From Escherichia coli (GTDB lineage: Bacteria; Pseudomonadota; Gammaproteobacteria; Enterobacterales; Enterobacteriaceae): DNA of 64,000 bases. Below, piece by piece: positions 5,710-55,118 of the stretch. Below the pieces are notes generated by a model, which made no database searches, was not told where the DNA came from, and was given only the letters and a program-made list of their open reading frames with translations. Each line of letters opens with the position of its first letter. Within the stretch, counting starts at the first letter, position 1. Made by a program: the position numbers and the translations under genes. The stretch lies in the NCBI RefSeq assembly GCF_044324875.1, contig NZ_CP172185.1, one strand, 5' to 3'.

Positions 5710-6813
5710 TCAGAACTGATAAGTCAAACCAACAGCGACAATATCATCGGTTAATACATCAGTTCTTTCAGTGAATTGATTCTTATCAAGCAGGTTGATT
5801 TTATAGTCTACGTATGTAGACATATTTTTGTTGAAGTAATAAGCAGCACCGACTTCAATGAATTTTTCAATGTATCCGTCATTATGTTTTTCAGGGATAC
5901 CAGTTTTGGTGGAAAGGTCTTTGGCTTTCGACTGGATATAAGCAAGAGACGGGCGCAAACCAAAGTCGAACTGATACTGTGCAACTACAGCGAAATCTTC
6001 AGTTTTATTGGCTACACCGTTGTAGCCGCCGGGCGAGTACTTGATTGCGCGGGTATTACGTGTTTCACCATAAGTGGCTGCCAGGTACAGATTATTCGCG
6101 TCATATTTTACGCTGGTAGCCCACTGTTCAGCTTTTTTACCTTTACCAAAAGTCGTCGCTTCCTGTGCATTGGTGCGATCGGCTGCACCATATGCAGCTA
6201 CAAAACCAAAGCCTTCATATTCATAACTGACAGAGCCGCCAACACCGTCGCCGTTTGAAGTGCCTGCATTGTCACGCTCATTTTTACCCAGATACTGAAC
6301 CGCAAAGTTCAGTCCATCAACCAGACCGAAGAAGTCGGTATTACGGTAAGTGGCAACACCACCTACACGACCCACGAAGAAGTTATCCCCGTTAACAGAA
6401 CCAGGCCCAAATTCAGGGAGGACATCAGTATAGCTTAATGCGTCATACACCACGCCATAGTTACGACCATAATCCAGAGAGCCAATATTTTCTAGTTTCA
6501 GGCCAGCGTATGCCAGACGGGTTTTGTCTCCTGCAGAGCCATCTTTTTCTGCCTTGTTGCCTTTGAATTCATATTCCCATTGACCAAAACCAGTTAACTG
6601 ATTGTTGATTTGGGTTTCACCTTTGAATCCAAGACGGGCATAAGTTCCATCACCTTCTTCTTTGGCGTTAGAAGAAAAGTAATGTTTACCCACTACTTTG
6701 CCATATAAATCCAGTTTATTACTGTTTTTATTATATATTTCTGCTGCATTTGCAGACATTGCCAGAAATACTGATGCTGCTACAGCAGAAAGTGCCACTG
6801 TTAAATTTTTCAT
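5710..6813 (-). CDS. Outer membrane porin (OmpC/NmpC family) moron
   Basis: Signal peptide [29 protein letters not shown], porin-type beta-strand composition, C-terminal aromatic residue; same position and orientation as nmpC in DLP12-type prophages. Confidence 0.85.
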
Positions 6814-7411: not shown

Positions 7412-7487
7412 GGCCCTTTAGCTCAGTGGTGAGAGCGAGCGACTCATAATCGCAAGGGCGCTGGTTCAAATTCAGCAAGGGCCACCA
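7412..7487 (+). tRNA. tRNA with anticodon CAU, ileX/ileZ-like (tRNA-Ile2 reading AUA, or Met)
   Basis: Cloverleaf folds by hand: acceptor GGCCCTT/AAGGGCC, D-arm GCTC..GAGC, anticodon loop CTCATAA, T-arm GCTGG-TTCAAAT-TCAGC, 3' CCA; close to recalled E. coli ileX. Confidence 0.85.
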
Positions 7488-7488
7488 A

Positions 7489-7565
7489 CCGCTACTAGCT
7501 CATCAGGAAAGAGCGTCAACCCTTTAAGTTGAGTGCGCTAGGTTCGATTCCCCGCTGGCGGTCCA
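7489..7565 (+). tRNA. tRNA-like element, probably degenerate (arg-tRNA-like architecture)
   Basis: Acceptor 6/7 bp, good D-arm and perfect anticodon stem, canonical T-loop TTCGATT, but T-stem has 2 mismatches and loop CCTTTAA lacks U33; ends CCA. Confidence 0.35.
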
Positions 7566-23301: not shown

Positions 23302-23729
23302 ATTTTGTCCTGAGACTGGCGCGTGAGATGGGAAGACCCGACTGGCGCGCCATGCTGGCGGATATGTCATCAACGGAATATGCCGACTGGCATCAGTTTT
23401 ACCGTACGCATTATTTTCATGATGTGCTGCTGGATCAGCATTTTGCTGGGCTGACGTATACCGTGCTCAGCCTGTTTTTCAGCGATCCGGATATGCATCC
23501 GCTGGATTTCAGTCTGCTGAACCGGCGTGAGGCTGACGAAGAGCCTGAAGATGACGTGCTGATGCAGAAAGCAGCAGGGCTTGCCGGAGGGGTTCGTTTT
23601 GACCCTGCGGGGAATAAAGTCATCTGCATTGCCTCTGATGTGGAGGATATGACGGGGGATGGTGTCATGCTGATGACGATATCGGAAGGTATAGCAGGAG
23701 GTAGACGGTATGGCTCAACCGGTCAGTGA
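22897..23729 (+). CDS. Tail assembly chaperone G-T fusion via programmed -1 frameshift
   Basis: Slippery heptamer G GGA AAG at 23277-23283 in G frame; the -1 frame is open from there to 23729. Confidence 0.6.
23277..23283 (+). promoter_or_regulatory. Programmed -1 ribosomal frameshift slippery site GGGAAAG
   Basis: Same heptamer and frame register as the lambda G/GT site. Confidence 0.6.
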
Positions 23730-25077
23730 TCTTGTCGTTGATATGACGCTGGATGCCACCCGGTTCAGCGAACAGATCAAAAAGGTCAGGCAGCATTTTC
23801 AGCAGGTGGACAGTGATGCAGGAAAAACGGCTGTTGCTGTTGAGCAATCCATGTCCCGGCAGGCGGAAGCTGCCCGCCGTGCCGGGATATCCATCGGTCA
23901 GTATAAGGCTGCGATGCGCACTCTGCCCGCGCAGTTTACTGATATCGCCACGCAACTGGCCGGTGGTCAGAGTCCATGGCTGATCCTGTTGCAGCAGGGC
24001 GGTCAGGTGAAGGACTCCTTCGGCGGACTGATCCCCATGTTCCGGGGACTTGCGGGGGCCGTTTCGTTACCAGCTGTCGGGGTGGGGGCTTTGGCTGCAG
24101 CGACAGGAGCGCTGGCGTATGCCTGGTACCAGGGTGACTCAATCCTGTCTGATTTCAGTAAAACGCTCGTATTGTCCGGTAATCAGGCAGGACTGACGGC
24201 AGATCGTATGCTGGCCCTGTCCAGAGCCGGGCAGGCAGCAGGGCTGACGTTTAACCAGACCAGCGAATCACTCAGTGCACTGGTTAAGGCGGGGGTACGC
24301 GGTGAGGCTCAGATTGCATCCATCAGCCAGAGTGTGGCGCGTTTCTCCTCTGCATCCGGCGTGGAGGTGGACAGGGTCGCTGAAGCCTTCGGGAAGCTGA
24401 CCTCTGACCCGACATCGGGGCTGACGGCGATGGCGCGCCAGTTCCATAACGTGACGGCGGAGCAGATTGCGTATGTTGCTCAGTTGCAGCGTTCCGGCGA
24501 TGAAGCAGGGGCATTGCAGGCGGCAAACGAGGCCGCAACGAAAGGGTTTGATGACCAGACCCGTCGACTGAAAGAGAACATGGGCACACTGGAGACCTGG
24601 GCAGACAAAACTGCCGGAGCGTTCAGAAGCATGTGGGACGCTATTCTGGATATTGGTCGCCCGGAGTCCTCTGCTGACATACTGGATAAGGCGCAGAAAG
24701 CCTTTGATGAAGCAGATAAAAAATGGCAGTGGTATCAGAGCCGCAGTCACCGACGGGGTAAAACATCTTCATTTCGTGCGAATCTTCAGGGCGCGTGGGA
24801 TGACAGAGTAAATGCGCAACTGGGGCTTTCAGCGGCCACACTGCAGGCTGATCTTGAAAAAGCCAGTGAGATGGCTGCAAAATGGCATCTGAATCGATCG
24901 CAGTTTGGCATTCGAATCGATCATGATTTGGCATCCATCTCCGATCACAGTTTGGCATCACAATCGATCACGATTTGGCATGCTTCCGATCATTGATTGG
25001 CATCCTGCCAGTCACTCCGGGAATTAACTCTTTTCACCACAGTCTCCATTGCCGTGTTTAAACCAGTGGAGACGTCA

Positions 25078-26643
25078 ATGTCCAGAAAGAGAAAATCCAG
25101 GAGCACTATGGAAACCTGTTTTAAGATCCTTCAGCTCAAGTTCGACAAGAAGCTGACTAACCGTTGTATCGGACTGACGTTACACATCAGCGCCTCAACC
25201 GTTTTTGAGGTTCTTGCCCGCTTCAAAGCCTCTTCTCTGTCATGGCCATTACCTGCTGATATATCCCATGACACGCTGGAGAAACTCATTTTTCCGCCCA
25301 AAGACACCTTTGCATCAGAGCTTGTAATGCCTGACATGTTGTACTTCGATACGGAAATGAGAAAACCAGGTGTGACGCGGCAACTGTTGTGGATGGAATA
25401 CAAGGCACAGGCGGGTAACAAAGCGATGGGATACTCGCACTTCTGCCGTTGCTACCGGGAGTGGAAAAAAACGCGACGTCTCTCCATGCGCCAGGAGCAT
25501 CGTGCCGGCGAAAAGCTTTTTATCGACTTCTGTGGTCCTACGGTTCCTGTTATTAATCCGGACACCGGTGAGATACGCCGCGTGGCAATCTTCGTGGCCG
25601 TAATGGGGGCGTCCAACTATACCTACGTTGAAGCGTGCGAAGGTCAGGACATGATGTCATGGTTAAATGCCCACAGCCGTTGCCTGACCTTCCTGGGCGG
25701 CGTACCGAAGCTGCTCATCCCCGATAACCTCAGAAGCGCAGTGAAAAAGGCCGATCGATATGAGCCTGTCATCAACGACAGTTATCAGGCACTGGCTGAG
25801 CACTATGGCACGGTTATCATCCCGGCCCGACCACGCAAACCTAAAGATAAACCAAAAGCAGAAAACGGCGTCCTCATCGTTGAACGATGGCTTCTTGCCC
25901 GCATCCGTAATGAAACCTTCCACACGCTCAGGGCGCTGAATGCGCGCCTTAGGGAGTTACTGACAGACATGAATAACCGGCCAATGAAGGGGTACGGCAA
26001 TCAAACCCGTGCAGAACGCTTCCGCATACTGGATGCGCCAGCACTCTCTCCGCTGCCTCTGGCACCTTATGAATACACGGAATACAAAGCTGTGAAGGTT
26101 GGCCCTGACTACCACGTTGAATATGCCCGTCACTGGTACTCCGTTCCACACGAACTGGTCGGTCAGCGTCTGTCACTGAAGGCGGGGCAGTCGGTGGTAC
26201 AGCTCTGGCACAAGGGGCAGTGTGTGGCGCAACATCCGCGCAGCACACATGAATATAAACACACAACCAATCCGCTTCACATGCCAGAGCGCCACCGGCA
26301 GCACGGGACATGGACACCGGAACGCCTGATCGAGCAGGGAAAACGTACGGGCCCGTCCACAGGCCGGGTGGTTGAATCCATGCTGAAGGCAAAACCCCAT
26401 CCGGAACTGGCTTATCGTGCAGTTCTGGGGCTGCTGGCACTTCAGAAAAAATACGGCCCGGAACGGCTGGAAAAGGCCTGTTACGTTGCCCTGCACTATA
26501 ACGCCCCTGACAGACGCTTTATCGACAATCTGCTGCGTCACCATCGGGAGAACCTGGAGCTTCCATTATCCCGCCAGGGCGAACAACATCCGGCATATGC
26601 TTCAGAGCATGAAAACCTGCGTGGTCCGGGCTACTACCACTGA
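25078..26643 (+). CDS. istA: IS21-family transposase IstA
   Basis: N-terminal HTH-like region then integrase-core-like region; start uncertain (25078 or 25108). Confidence 0.8.
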   Translation: MSRKRKSRSTMETCFKILQLKFDKKLTNRCIGLTLHISASTVFEVLARFKASSLSWPLPADISHDTLEKLIFPPKDTFASELVMPDMLYFDTEMRKPGVTRQLLWMEYKAQAGNKAMGYSHFCRCYREWKKTRRLSMRQEHRAGEKLFIDFCGPTVPVINPDTGEIRRVAIFVAVMGASNYTYVEACEGQDMMSWLNAHSRCLTFLGGVPKLLIPDNLRSAVKKADRYEPVINDSYQALAEHYGTVIIPARPRKPKDKPKAENGVLIVERWLLARIRNETFHTLRALNARLRELLTDMNNRPMKGYGNQTRAERFRILDAPALSPLPLAPYEYTEYKAVKVGPDYHVEYARHWYSVPHELVGQRLSLKAGQSVVQLWHKGQCVAQHPRSTHEYKHTTNPLHMPERHRQHGTWTPERLIEQGKRTGPSTGRVVESMLKAKPHPELAYRAVLGLLALQKKYGPERLEKACYVALHYNAPDRRFIDNLLRHHRENLELPLSRQGEQHPAYASEHENLRGPGYYH

Positions 26644-26659
26644 CAGAAGGAACAACAGT

Positions 26660-27415
26660 ATGAGTGATAACCTGTTAAACAAACTGACCCAACTGAAACT
26701 CCCGGCGATGGCCGGGAGCCTGATACGGCAGCGGGAAACGCCTCAGACCTACGACGAACTGTCGTTCGAGGAAAGGCTGACGCTGCTGGTTGATGACGAG
26801 CTTCTGAGCAGGGAAAACAGCCGTGTGGCACGGTTGAGAAAAAATGCCGGCCTGAAATACCAGGCAACACCGGAAGGGCTGCGCTATCCGGCCTCAAGAG
26901 GTCTGCGGGCTGAACAGATGAGAGAACTGCTGAACGGCCACTACATAACCCACAGGAAAAACCTGCTGATAACCGGTCCGACAGGATGTGGCAAGAGCTG
27001 GATAGCCAATGCGCTGGGCGAACAGGCATGTCGACAGAAACACAGCGTCCGGTACTGTAGAACCGGGCGATTACTGGAACAACTGGCTCAGGGACGTGTT
27101 GATGGCAGCTGGCTGAAATATCTGAAACAGTTGCAAAAAATACAGGTTCTAATCCTGGACGATCTGGGGCTGGAACAGTTAAGTAACGCCCAGTGTAATG
27201 ACCTTCTGGAGCTCATAGAGGATCGTTACGGACAAAGCAGCACGATAGTGGTAAGCCAGTTCCCGGTAGATAAATGGCATGGTCTGATGGAGAACCCAAC
27301 AACAGCAGATGCCATCCTGGACAGACTGGTACATAACTCACACCGAGTGGTCCTTCAGGGAGAGTCACTGAGGAAAAATCCCCCGGTAGTGGAAAGCAGC
27401 GAAAAAACGCGTTAA
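26660..27415 (+). CDS. istB: IS21-family helper ATPase IstB
   Basis: Walker A GPTGCGKS, Walker B LILDDLG; 251 aa. Confidence 0.85.
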   Translation: MSDNLLNKLTQLKLPAMAGSLIRQRETPQTYDELSFEERLTLLVDDELLSRENSRVARLRKNAGLKYQATPEGLRYPASRGLRAEQMRELLNGHYITHRKNLLITGPTGCGKSWIANALGEQACRQKHSVRYCRTGRLLEQLAQGRVDGSWLKYLKQLQKIQVLILDDLGLEQLSNAQCNDLLELIEDRYGQSSTIVVSQFPVDKWHGLMENPTTADAILDRLVHNSHRVVLQGESLRKNPPVVESSEKTR

Positions 27416-28931
27416 AAAGCGGTAGAAAAAGTTAAGTTCCCGGTTGATCGAATGGATGCGAATCGCTGATCGGACTTCGATGCCAATCCGTGATCGAATA
27501 GAGCGGAATACGCAAGATGGCTGCAAAAGATCGTGCCGAATCAGAGGCTTCACGACTCAGGTACACTGAAGAGGCGCAGAAGGCTTACGAACGGCTGCAG
27601 ACACCGCTGGAAAAATATACCGCCCGTCAGGAAGAACTGAACAAGGCACTGAAAGACGGGAAAATCCTGCAGGCAGATTACAACACGCTGATGGCGGCGG
27701 CGAAAAAGGATTATGAAGCGACGCTGAAAAAGCCGAAACAGTCCGGCGTGAAGGTGTCTGCGGGCGATCGTCAGGAAGACAGTGCTCATGCTGCCCTGCT
27801 GACGCTTCAGGCTGAACTCCGGACGCTGGAGAAGCATGCCGGAGCAAATGAGAAAATCAGCCAGCAGCGCCGGGATTTGTGGAAGGCGGAGAGTCAGTTC
27901 GCGGTACTGGAGGAGGCGGCGCAACGTCGCCAGCTGTCTGCACAGGAGAAATCCCTGCTGGCGCATAAAGATGAGACGCTGGAGTACAAACGCCAGCTGG
28001 CGGAACTTGGCGATAAGATTGAACACCAGAAACGGCTGAACGAACTGGTACAGCAGGCGGAGAAATTCGCACAGCAGCAACGGGCAAAACGGGCCGCCAT
28101 TGATGCGAAAAGCCGGGGACTGACTGACCGGCAGGCAGCGCGGGAAGCCACGGAACAGCGCCTGAAGGAACAGTATGGCGATAATCCGCTGGCGCTGAAT
28201 AACGTCATGTCAGAGCAGAAAAAGACCTGGGCGGCTGAAGACCTGCTTCGCGGGAGCTGGATGGCAGGCCTGAAGTCCGGCTGGAGTGAGTGGGAAGAGA
28301 GCGCCACGGACAGTATGTCGCAGGTTAAAAGTGCTGCCACGCAGACCTTTGATGGTATTGCGCAGAATATGGCGGCGATGCTGACCGGCAGTGAACAGAA
28401 CTGGCGCAGCTTCACCCGCTCCGTGCTGTCCATGATGACAGAAATTCTGGTTAAGCAGGCAATGGTGGGGATTGTCGGGAGTATCGGCAGCGTCATTGGC
28501 GGTGCTGCCGGTGGTGGCGCATCAGTGTCAGGCGGTACAGCCATTCAGGCCGCTGCGGCAAAATTCCATTTTGCGACCGGGGGATTTACGGGAACCGGCG
28601 GCAAATATGAGCCAGCGGGGATTGTTCACCGTGGTGAATTTGTCTTCACGAAGGAGGCAACCAGCCGGATTGGTGTCGGCAACCTGTACCGCCTGATGCG
28701 GGGCTATGCGGAAGGTGGTTATGTGGGCGGTGCCGGAAGTCCGGCGCAGATGCGGCGGGCTGAAGGCATTAATTTTAATCAGAACAATCACGTGGTGATT
28801 CAGAACGACGGTACGAATGGTCTGCCAGGTCCACAGATGATGAAGGCAGTGTATGACATGGCCCGCAAGGGTGCCCGTGATGAAATTCAGGCACAGATGC
28901 GCGATGGTGGTCTGTTCTCCGGAGGTGGACG

Positions 28932-29261
28932 ATGAAAACCTTCCGCTGGAAAGTGAAACCCGGTATGGATGTGGCTTCGGCCCCTTCTGTAAGAAAGGTG
29001 CGCTTTGGTGATGGCTATTCCCAGCGAGCGCCTGCCGGGCTGAATGCCAACCTGAAAACGTACAGCGTGACGCTTTCTGTTCCCCGTTGGGAGGCCACGG
29101 CGCTGGAGTCGTTTCTGGCTGAGCACGGGGGCTGGAAGGCCTTTCTGTGGACGCCGCCTTATGAGTGGCGGCAGATAAAGGTGACCTGCGCAAAATGGTC
29201 GTCGCGGGTCAGTATGCTGCGTGTTGAGTTCAGCGCAGAGTTTGAACAGGTGGTGAACTGA
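28932..29261 (+). CDS. M: Minor tail protein M
   Basis: 109 aa; MKTFRWKVKPGMDVASAPSVRKVRFGDGYSQRAPAGLNANLKTYSVTL nearly identical to recalled lambda M. Confidence 0.9.
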   Translation: MKTFRWKVKPGMDVASAPSVRKVRFGDGYSQRAPAGLNANLKTYSVTLSVPRWEATALESFLAEHGGWKAFLWTPPYEWRQIKVTCAKWSSRVSMLRVEFSAEFEQVVN

Positions 29262-54078: not shown

Positions 54079-54510
54079 ATATTCATCCCTGAAATGTATT
54101 AATGAAATAAACGATATTTTACGCGCAATAAATGTTTGCCGCATTAGTTGTTTGAGCGAAAAATATCTGGAAAGCAGATCACAGTACATAAAAAAACCTG
54201 CTGGTGAGGCAGGTTCTTTTATTTACTATTTTCAGGCCCAACACCGCAGCCTGTGCAACATCGTGTTCCAACGAACGAATTATAACCATCGGTGGACCCC
54301 GTTGCAATTAAGATAATGAGATTTATAATCCAGACGGTTGGGACGTTGCGCCGGATCGGACCAATTTTAAGTCCTGGCTACCGGACGGGTGGTGCTGCAG
54401 GTGGTGCCCTGATCCGGAGTGCAACATCGTGGTCCAACATACGTAAACCAGTATCGACAGGCAGTGTAAGGGTAAGGTGCTGGTGTTGCGCTCCTTAATA
54501 AGGAGAGCGA

Positions 54511-54600: not shown

Positions 54601-55118
54601 CGGGCAAATTGAAACGCATCTAAGGGGGAAAACCGCTTCCCCCTTTAATAAAATGATTACTGTTTTTATTAATTCATCATATAACTCATTTTTATTTATA
54701 AATTCATCGATTTTATATTCAACGTACCGTTTAACCGGGATGTGAATATTTATGGTGGGCTATTGGCAAAAAATATCTGGAAAGTAGATCGCAGAAAATA
54801 AAAAAACCTGCTGGTGAGGCAGGTTCTTTTATTTACTACTTTGATGTTAAGTTACTGATAGTGCAACATGGCATCTCAACGAACGAATTATAACCACCTC
54901 TGGACAGTGTTGCAATTAAGATAATGAGATTTATAATCCTGACTGTTGGGAAGTTGCGCCGGATCGAACCCATTTCAAGTCCTGGCTACCGGACGGGTGG
55001 TGCCGCAGGTAGTGCTCTGATCCGGAGTGCAACATGGCGACTCAACATACGTAAACCAGTATCGACAGGCAGCGTAAGGGTAAGGTGCTGGTGTTGCGCT
55101 CCTTAATAAGGAGAGCGG

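What the first reader, a model, noticed from the sequence alone, without database searches (positions are those of the whole stretch)
24868..27530. IS21-family element in H with unusually long identical flanks (up to 14 bp)
AGATGGCTGCAAAA occurs on both sides (24869-24882 and 27515-27528). IS21-family elements usually give 4-8 bp duplications, so either part of this repeat is IS terminal sequence or the duplication is atypical. Multiple subterminal TTTGGCAT...GATC repeats are visible at both ends.
Basis: seen in the sequence. Interest (0 to 1): 0.3.

Follow-up and report, generated by a model that had tools for sequence, protein, structure and literature searches.

The report
Ordinary ISSso4 insertion, 7-bp duplication
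A known mobile element (ISSso4, IS21 family) has jumped into a prophage tail-length gene, making a normal 7-bp duplication; the flanks look 14 bp long only because the next 7 bases of the gene happen to match the element's own first 7 bases.

Summary
The 14-bp repeat AGATGGCTGCAAAA is real (24869-24882 and 27515-27528), but it is not a 14-bp target duplication. In 40 of 42 independent sequence contexts, the same element carries TGCAAAA directly before TGGCATC. The element therefore starts at 24876, not 24883, and ends at 27514 (...GGAATACGCA). It is 2,639 bp long, has 5'-TG...CA-3' ends, and is identical to a copy in E. coli strain 3R.

Six uninterrupted alleles of the tape-measure gene carry one copy of AGATGGCTGCAAAA, with identical sequence for about 120 nt on each side. 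The duplication is therefore AGATGGC (7 bp). The right-hand TGCAAAA is native gene sequence (codons Ala-Ala-Lys).

Among 19 independent ISSso4 insertions with clean duplications, the lengths are 4 bp (1), 5 bp (2), 6 bp (8) and 7 bp (8), so 7 bp is typical. In 67 other right flanks, end-like sequence beside the insertion is no more common than at control offsets. The heptamer match is best read as coincidence.

The subterminal repeats are confirmed: six units on the left and three on the right, about 23 bp apart, as is typical for IS21-family ends. The insertion splits an otherwise intact 859-codon tape-measure gene. This is a known element behaving normally, so interest is low.

The parts
23710..24875 (+). 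5' part of the prophage tail tape-measure gene (lambda H type), 388 codons plus 2 nt. As it stands, the reading frame runs into the IS and stops at 24996.
   Evidence: ORF list; Pfam TMP_2, 1.7e-69; collinear with intact 859-aa homologues P0001-P0004; read-through peptide ...EMAAKWHLNRS...DH*.
24869..24875 (.). Left copy of the 7-bp target-site duplication, AGATGGC.
   Evidence: Uninterrupted alleles have a single AGATGGC. The element's left end was fixed at 24876 from independent copies.
24876..27514 (+). Complete ISSso4-type IS21-family insertion sequence, 2,639 bp, with ends TGCAAAATGGCATC...GGAATACGCA (5'-TG...CA-3').
   Evidence: 0 mismatches over 2,639 bp to the copy in E. coli 3R (L001), and 1-8 mismatches to seven other copies. 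RefSeq annotates the matching copies as 'IS21 family transposase' and 'IS21-like element ISSso4 family helper ATPase IstB'. 2,639 bp is the modal length in the survey.
24876..25014 (+). Left terminal repeat array: six direct units of about 23 bp (7 nt + TGGCAT + about 10 nt ending in GATC), with spacings of 23, 23, 24, 23 and 22 bp. TGCAAAA is the first 7 nt of the outermost unit. These are presumed IstA binding sites.
   Evidence: Family precedent for multiple direct repeats spaced 23 bp apart: PMC10122671.
25108..26643 (+). istA, a DDE transposase of 511 aa. Residues D140, D206 and E252 align with the catalytic D124, D187 and E233 of IS5376 IstA.
   Evidence: Pfam and NCBIfam; alignment to PDB 8q4d/8b4h; residue positions; catalytic residues of IS5376 named in PMC10122671.
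26660..27415 (+). istB, an AAA+ helper ATPase of 251 aa, with Walker A GPTGCGKS at residue 106 and Walker B LILDDLG at residue 164.
   Evidence: Pfam IstB_IS21, 1e-60; NCBIfam IS21_help_AAA; motifs.
27445..27514 (-). Right terminal repeat array: three units in inverted orientation, with spacings of 22 and 24 bp. The outermost unit reads TGCGTATTCCGCTCTATTCGATC on the - strand.
27515..27521 (.). Right copy of the 7-bp target-site duplication, AGATGGC.
27522..27528 (+). Native TGCAAAA of the tape-measure gene (part of codons GCT GCA AAA). It is identical by coincidence to the IS's first heptamer and is the reason the flanks look 14 bp long.
   Evidence: Present once, in the same place, in six uninterrupted alleles L011-L016. 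Other insertions show no enrichment of such matches.
27515..28935 (+). 3' part of the tape-measure gene. An in-frame ATG at 27517 gives a 472-aa ORF, with no evidence that it is expressed.
   Evidence: Pfam Tape_meas_lam_C. Joining the two fragments while removing the IS and one duplication copy gives an open 859-codon gene.

Best explanation
A complete, apparently active copy of the known IS21-family element ISSso4 (2,639 bp, 24876-27514) transposed into the tail tape-measure gene (lambda H type) of a lambdoid prophage. By analogy with IS5376, IstA made staggered cuts 7 bp apart in target DNA prepared by IstB. Repair of the gaps duplicated AGATGGC (24869-24875 and 27515-27521). The 7 nt of the gene just downstream of the duplicated segment are TGCAAAA, which happens to equal the first 7 nt of the element. 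The left junction therefore reads AGATGGC+TGCAAAA (target then IS), and the right junction reads AGATGGC+TGCAAAA (target then target), giving an apparent 14-bp repeat. The insertion splits the gene, so the prophage should be unable to build a normal tail. Shown here: the element's ends, the single-copy empty site, the 7-bp duplication, and the lack of a general end-like target bias. Inferred: the cutting mechanism, that the event is recent, and the phenotype.
For: (1) The left end is fixed by independent copies. All 9 E. coli copies fetched have TGCAAAA directly before TGGCATC while the flanks diverge immediately outside it. Across all fetched DNA, 52 of 54 left-end occurrences and 40 of 42 distinct contexts have it; the search pattern did not include the heptamer. 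(2) Empty site: six uninterrupted alleles from at least five assemblies (L011-L016) have exactly one AGATGGCTGCAAAA, with no mismatch to the window within about 120 nt on either side. A 90%-identical allele has the homologous single site GAGATGGCaGCAAAgGA. (3) A 7-bp duplication is normal for this element. Nineteen independent insertions with clean duplications give 4 bp x1, 5 bp x2, 6 bp x8 and 7 bp x8. (4) With TGCAAAA included, the ends are 5'-TG...CA-3' and the outermost left unit has the full length of about 23 bp, like the other five units. This matches the family description: terminal CA, and direct repeats 23 bp apart (PMC10122671). (5) Coincidence test: in 68 distinct right flanks, the best match to TGCAAAA at offsets 4-7 is 7/7 only in the window and 6/7 once. 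The distribution otherwise equals that at control offsets. About 0.36 flanks with at least 6/7 are expected by chance among 67. (6) The element is identical over 2,639 bp to the copy in strain 3R, and the reconstructed gene is open for 859 codons, consistent with a recent event.
Against: A 7/7 match in one fixed register has a prior probability of about 6e-5 per insertion. Calling it coincidence relies on the selection effect: the finding was flagged because of the match. It also relies on a modest survey of 67 other flanks, which would miss a weak bias. Sequence alone cannot formally separate 'full IS plus 7-bp duplication' from 'IS lacking its first 7 nt plus 14-bp duplication', because both give the same string. 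No isogenic strain without the insertion was found; the closest empty alleles are 94-95% identical over the whole gene, although identical around the site. The curated ISfinder entry for ISSso4 could not be consulted.
Confidence: 0.93

Rival explanations
1. The heptamer match is not chance. ISSso4 (IstA/IstB) is drawn to, or integrates more efficiently beside, target sequence that resembles its own terminal heptamer, or microhomology favoured this event. The anatomy is the same (7-bp duplication) but the site choice is biased.
For: The a priori chance of 7/7 in register is about 6e-5. One further flank, L055, has 6/7 (CGCAAAA) at offset 6. The 19 target sites show some non-random composition: G at position -3 in 13 of 19, and 5 of 8 seven-bp duplications end in GC.
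Against: The other 67 distinct right flanks show the same distribution of matches to TGCAAAA as control offsets in the same flanks. The single 6/7 is within expectation (0.36). None of 39 distinct left flanks has more than 4/7 matches to the right-end heptamer ATACGCA. Published work on IS5376 reports no strong target sequence specificity, and describes IstB as marking flexible sites away from the transposon sequence (PMC10122671, PMC11208146). The finding was selected because of the match.
Confidence: 0.05
2. There is a genuine, atypical 14-bp target duplication made by an element whose left end is TGGCATC (24883).
For: The 14-bp direct repeat abuts TGGCATC on the left and ...ACGCA on the right. 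The resulting sequence is formally the same as under the main explanation.
Against: TGCAAAA precedes TGGCATC in 40 of 42 unrelated contexts, so it belongs to the element. No other insertion has a duplication longer than 7 bp. An end at TGGCATC would shorten the outermost repeat unit from about 23 to 16 bp. This reading needs the same 7-nt coincidence plus loss of the terminal heptamer.
Confidence: 0.015
3. The structure is an assembly or recombination artefact, for example a mis-join at a repeated IS, rather than a simple insertion.
For: ISs are common sites of mis-assembly. This exact junction was not found in 5,426 complete E. coli genomes or in the other loci fetched.
Against: Both junctions are precise. 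Removing the IS and one duplication copy restores an open 859-codon gene collinear with intact homologues. A perfect duplication is the signature of transposition, not of a mis-join.
Confidence: 0.005

Closest known systems
ISSso4 (IS21 family; name as used by RefSeq/NCBI annotation and ISfinder, first described in Shigella sonnei)
   Same: It is 100% identical over 2,639 bp to a copy whose istB RefSeq annotates as 'IS21-like element ISSso4 family helper ATPase IstB'. It has the same two genes, the same ends and the same 4-7-bp duplications as copies in E. coli chromosomes, plasmids and gut-metagenome contigs.
   Different: Nothing in the element itself differs. Only the insertion site is particular to this window: a prophage tape-measure gene, next to a native TGCAAAA. 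The ISfinder reference entry could not be consulted, so the name rests on the RefSeq annotation.
IS21 / IS5376 (prototype and structurally characterised members of the IS21 family)
   Same: It has an istA-istB operon, a conserved DDE triad, an AAA+ helper, terminal 5'-TG...CA-3', ends built of direct repeats about 23 bp apart, and short duplications set by staggered cuts.
   Different: IstA is only distantly related to IS5376 IstA (phmmer E-value 6e-14). It has six left and three right repeat units, rather than the 'usually at least two' described per end. Duplications are mostly 6-7 bp and variable, rather than the fixed 5 bp reported for IS5376.
Phage lambda gpH (tail tape-measure protein)
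   Same: The interrupted gene has the TMP_2 and Tape_meas_lam_C domains. It sits between the tail-assembly chaperone genes (G/T type) and the M/L/K/I/J-type tail genes, as in lambda.
   Different: The allele is diverged around the insertion site. GenBank phages and most E. coli prophages are about 85-90% identical there.

Membership tests
IS21 family | Two consecutive genes: istA (DDE transposase) followed by istB (AAA+ helper ATPase). | tested here: met
   istA 25108-26643: NCBIfam transpos_IS21, 284.7 bits (cut-off 160). istB 26660-27415: NCBIfam IS21_help_AAA, 257.8 bits (cut-off 200); Pfam IstB_IS21, 1e-60.
IS21 family | Catalytic DDE triad in IstA. | tested here: met
   D140, D206 and E252 align with D124, D187 and E233 of IS5376 IstA (PDB 8q4d/8b4h). 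Those catalytic residues are named in PMC10122671.
IS21 family | Element ends 5'-TG...CA-3'. | tested here: met
   The ends, defined by divergence of flanks among independent copies, are TGCAAAA...ACGCA.
IS21 family | Terminal inverted repeats composed of multiple direct repeats about 23 bp apart. | tested here: met
   Six units on the left and three on the right, with spacings of 22-24 bp. The motif is absent from the rest of the window. Family description in PMC10122671.
IS21 family | Short target-site duplication (4-8 bp according to ISfinder, from my own knowledge; 5 bp for IS5376). | tested here: met
   7 bp (AGATGGC) here, shown by the empty-site alleles. The range is 4-7 bp in 19 independent insertions.
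IS21 family | Transposition through IstB-dependent strand transfer, or reactive IRR-IRL junctions. | not testable with these tools
   This needs in vivo or in vitro transposition assays. It is inferred only by homology.
ISSso4 (specific element) | Near-identity over the full length to the reference element. | tested here: inconclusive
   It is identical to copies that RefSeq labels as ISSso4 family. The ISfinder reference sequence itself was not available for comparison.
Lambda-H-type tail tape-measure gene (the target) | TMP_2 and Tape_meas_lam_C domains, and a position between the tail chaperone genes and the M/L genes. | tested here: met

The most novel reading that the evidence does not exclude
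ISSso4 may have a weak, previously undescribed target bias. The candidate signals are G three bases outside the duplication, GC at the IRL-proximal end of 7-bp duplications, and possibly an attraction to sequence that mimics its own terminal heptamer. Under this reading the 14-bp identity would be an extreme example of the bias rather than pure chance.
Probability: 0.06. Interest if true: 0.2.

Novelty: already known. Interest (0 to 1): 0.07.

Why it matters
It matters little beyond annotation. The result fixes the true ends of this IS copy (24876-27514) and its 7-bp duplication. It shows that the prophage's tape-measure gene was recently disrupted, so the prophage is probably tail-defective. 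It also illustrates a general pitfall: when target sequence next to an insertion happens to match the element's terminus, direct repeats look too long and the ends are mis-called. The small survey also gives a usable duplication-length profile for ISSso4: 6 and 7 bp are about equally common, with 4-5 bp occasional.

Tried and rejected
(1) I searched for the exact predicted empty-site 23-mer in viral contigs and found 0 hits. (2) I searched for near-identical empty sites in complete E. coli genomes and GenBank phages. Only 85-90% identical alleles cover the site. This was solved through a protein search followed by look-up of the encoding contigs. (3) A scan of representative genomes for the IS left end gave 0 hits. 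(4) I looked for the same insertion junction elsewhere and found none, either in complete E. coli genomes or in the fetched loci. (5) The ISSso4 literature has no statement on its ends or duplication. (6) I considered whether blast matches extending 8-15 bp beyond the IS end pointed to a longer element. Inspection showed that these are chance extensions into flanks that differ from each other. (7) I considered a 14-bp duplication, an end-directed target preference and an assembly artefact; all were rejected or down-weighted, as set out under the rival explanations. (8) Seven loci that contain both ends lack a clean duplication (0-1 bp). These include L004 (next to an IS30) and some short metagenome contigs. 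I treated them as rearranged or variant copies and left them out of the length distribution.
Full report
**Observation.** The 14-mer AGATGGCTGCAAAA occurs exactly twice in the window, at 24869-24882 and 27515-27528. No dinucleotide-preserving shuffle out of 100 reached two matches. The sequence between the copies encodes two genes. One is an IstA-type DDE transposase (25108-26643). The other is an IstB-type AAA+ ATPase (26660-27415) (Pfam; NCBIfam: transpos_IS21 at 284.7 bits against a cut-off of 160, and IS21_help_AAA at 257.8 bits against 200). The gene on either side is a lambda-H-type tail tape-measure gene, with TMP_2 on the left fragment and Tape_meas_lam_C on the right. It lies in a lambdoid prophage that also has a terminase, a major capsid protein E, a tail tube protein and a J-type tip protein.

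**Where the element really ends.** A megablast of 24883-27514 against 5,426 complete E. coli genomes found full-length copies at 98.6-100% identity on chromosomes and plasmids. RefSeq annotates them as 'IS21 family transposase' and 'IS21-like element ISSso4 family helper ATPase IstB'. I fetched nine copies from unrelated contexts: a dynamin-family gene, repB, a KAP NTPase gene, ardA, yeaE, a vgrG-type gene, an IS66 and others.
- In all nine, the seven bases left of TGGCATC are TGCAAAA, and the sequences diverge immediately outside that heptamer. On the right they diverge immediately after ...GGAATACGCA.
- To avoid bias, I scanned for the left end with a pattern that excludes the heptamer. Nine viral-contig loci, in six distinct contexts, again all carry TGCAAAA.
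- Over everything fetched, 52 of 54 left-end occurrences and 40 of 42 distinct contexts have it. The two exceptions are single-base variants, AGCAAAA and TGCAAATA.
- The element therefore spans 24876-27514. It is 2,639 bp long, which is the modal length in the survey, and has 5'-TG...CA-3' ends. It is identical at every position to the copy in E. coli strain 3R, and differs by 1-8 positions from seven other copies.

**What the target looked like before insertion.** Joining the two gene fragments, with one copy of the 14-mer, gives an open 859-codon gene.
- A protein search found intact 859-aa tape-measure proteins that are 94-95% identical and contain exactly the predicted junction peptide, EKASEMAAKDRAESEASRLRY.
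- Their DNA, from six contigs of at least five assemblies, has one copy of AGATGGC TGCAAAA. It has no difference from the window within about 120 nt on either side, and no IS.
- A more distant allele (90% identical) has the homologous single site GAGATGGCaGCAAAgGA.

The native sequence is therefore ...GTG AGATGGC TGCAAAA GATCG.... The insertion duplicated only AGATGGC (24869-24875 and 27515-27521). The TGCAAAA at 27522-27528 belongs to the gene (codons GCT GCA AAA, Ala-Ala-Lys). It merely equals the first seven bases of the element.

**Is 7 bp normal for this element?** I scanned viral and metagenome contigs for the right terminus and combined the hits with the E. coli copies. This gave 68 distinct right flanks, of which 26 loci contain both ends. 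Nineteen of those have a clean duplication: 4 bp (1), 5 bp (2), 6 bp (8) and 7 bp (8). None is longer than 7 bp. The other seven (0-1 bp) are copies next to other ISs, variants, or short contigs. A 7-bp duplication is therefore typical for ISSso4 and falls within the 4-8 bp I recall ISfinder listing for the family. IS5376 gives 5 bp (PMC10122671 and PMC11208146).

**Coincidence or target preference?** The chance of a 7/7 match in a fixed register is about 6e-5, so I tested for a general tendency.
- In the 68 distinct right flanks, I took the best match to TGCAAAA at offsets 4-7 after the element. It is 7/7 only in the window, 6/7 once (L055, CGCAAAA), and at most 5/7 elsewhere.
- The distribution is the same as at three sets of control offsets in the same flanks, one of which also gave a 6/7.
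- About 0.36 flanks with at least 6/7 are expected among 67.
- On the other side, none of 39 distinct left flanks has more than 4/7 matches to the right-end heptamer.
- Published biochemistry on IS5376 reports no strong target sequence specificity. It describes IstB as selecting deformable DNA 'away from the transposon sequence'.

I conclude that the match is a rare coincidence that came to attention because it makes the flanks look unusual. A weak bias cannot be excluded with this sample size; I put it at about 5%.

**Subterminal repeats.**
- The left end has six direct units, with TGGCAT anchors at 24883, 24906, 24929, 24953, 24976 and 24998 (spacings 23, 23, 24, 23, 22 bp).
- The right end has three inverted units, with anchors at 27507, 27485 and 27461.
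- The motif CGATCNNNNWTTGGCAT, allowing up to 1 mismatch, is found 7 times, all inside the element. Shuffles gave 0.29 on average and never reached 7.
- Each unit is 7 nt + TGGCAT + about 10 nt. TGCAAAA occupies the 7-nt slot of the outermost unit, which is independent structural support for the end at 24876.
- This matches the family architecture described for IS21 and IS5376: ends composed of direct repeats L1/L2 and R1/R2, spaced 23 bp apart, bound by the IstA HTH domains, with a terminal CA carrying the reactive 3'-OH (PMC10122671). ISSso4 simply has more units on the left.

**Mechanism (inferred by homology).** IstA (D140, D206 and E252 align with the catalytic D124, D187 and E233 of IS5376 IstA) synapses the two ends. 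IstB (Walker A GPTGCGKS, Walker B LILDDLG) bends the target DNA and activates strand transfer. Staggered attacks 7 bp apart, followed by gap repair, produce the duplication.

**Consequence.** The tape-measure gene is split after codon 388. The upstream frame reads 'AAK' from IS sequence (the same residues as the native protein, because of the coincidence), then 36 foreign residues, and stops at 24996. Both the IS and the gene fragments are otherwise intact, which suggests a recent event. The prophage should be unable to assemble normal tails; this was not tested.

**Verdict.** This is a known element (ISSso4, IS21 family) with canonical ends, a canonical 7-bp duplication and canonical terminal repeats, inserted into a prophage gene. 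The 'unusually long flanks' come from a coincidental heptamer match. Novelty: already known. Interest is low.

Noticed in passing
Target sites of 19 ISSso4 insertions (window 24854-24875 / 27515-27536; loci L001-L010, L033, L041, L042, L052, L054, L057, L070, L082, L088, L095): The target sites may show a weak consensus. G sits three bases outside the duplication on the IRL side in 13 of 19 sites (binomial 8e-5, not corrected for the roughly 64 position-base combinations examined). Five of eight 7-bp duplications end in GC. CAGTG lies directly upstream of the duplication in the window, L052 and L054.
   Followed up: partly
L055 (metagenome contig Ga0233370_1000308), right flank of the IS: This is a second near-coincidence. 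The right flank reads TACAGT CGCAAAA, a 6/7 match to the IS's first heptamer at offset 6. The left end is not on the contig. The match is within chance expectation (0.36 among 67 flanks).
   Followed up: yes
L109 1501-1602 (E. coli 95-3192, next to terW and an IS66) and L110 1501-1702 (E. coli E67); many more: More than a thousand complete E. coli genomes, including O157:H7, O103 and O111 strains, carry unannotated 100-200-bp fragments that are 94-96% identical to the left repeat array of this IS. In the two examined, the fragments sit among other IS fragments and pseudogenes, so they look like remnants of truncated ISSso4-like copies.
   Followed up: partly
window 38287-39825 (-): This ORF encodes a 512-aa IS66-family transposase (DDE_Tnp_IS66, 9e-107). 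It lies just beyond the prophage tail-fibre region, so the window holds a second insertion sequence.
   Followed up: no
window 54190-54265 and 54800-54873 (-): There are two OrzO-P antitoxin sRNA matches (Rfam RF02083, 101 and 92 bits against a gathering score of 60). This indicates a tandem zor-orz type I toxin-antitoxin locus in the chromosomal part of the window.
   Followed up: no
window 7412-7484 and 7489-7562 (+); 5710-6813 (-): Two adjacent tRNA genes lie next to a Gram-negative porin gene (Porin_1, 3e-127), upstream of the prophage structural genes. The second tRNA scores only just above the threshold, at 31.2 bits against 29.
   Followed up: no
L067 and L076 (metagenome contigs), left end of the IS: These are two variants of the terminal heptamer: AGCAAAA in L067 and TGCAAATA in L076. 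They are the only exceptions among 42 distinct contexts. L076 also lacks a clean duplication.
   Followed up: no
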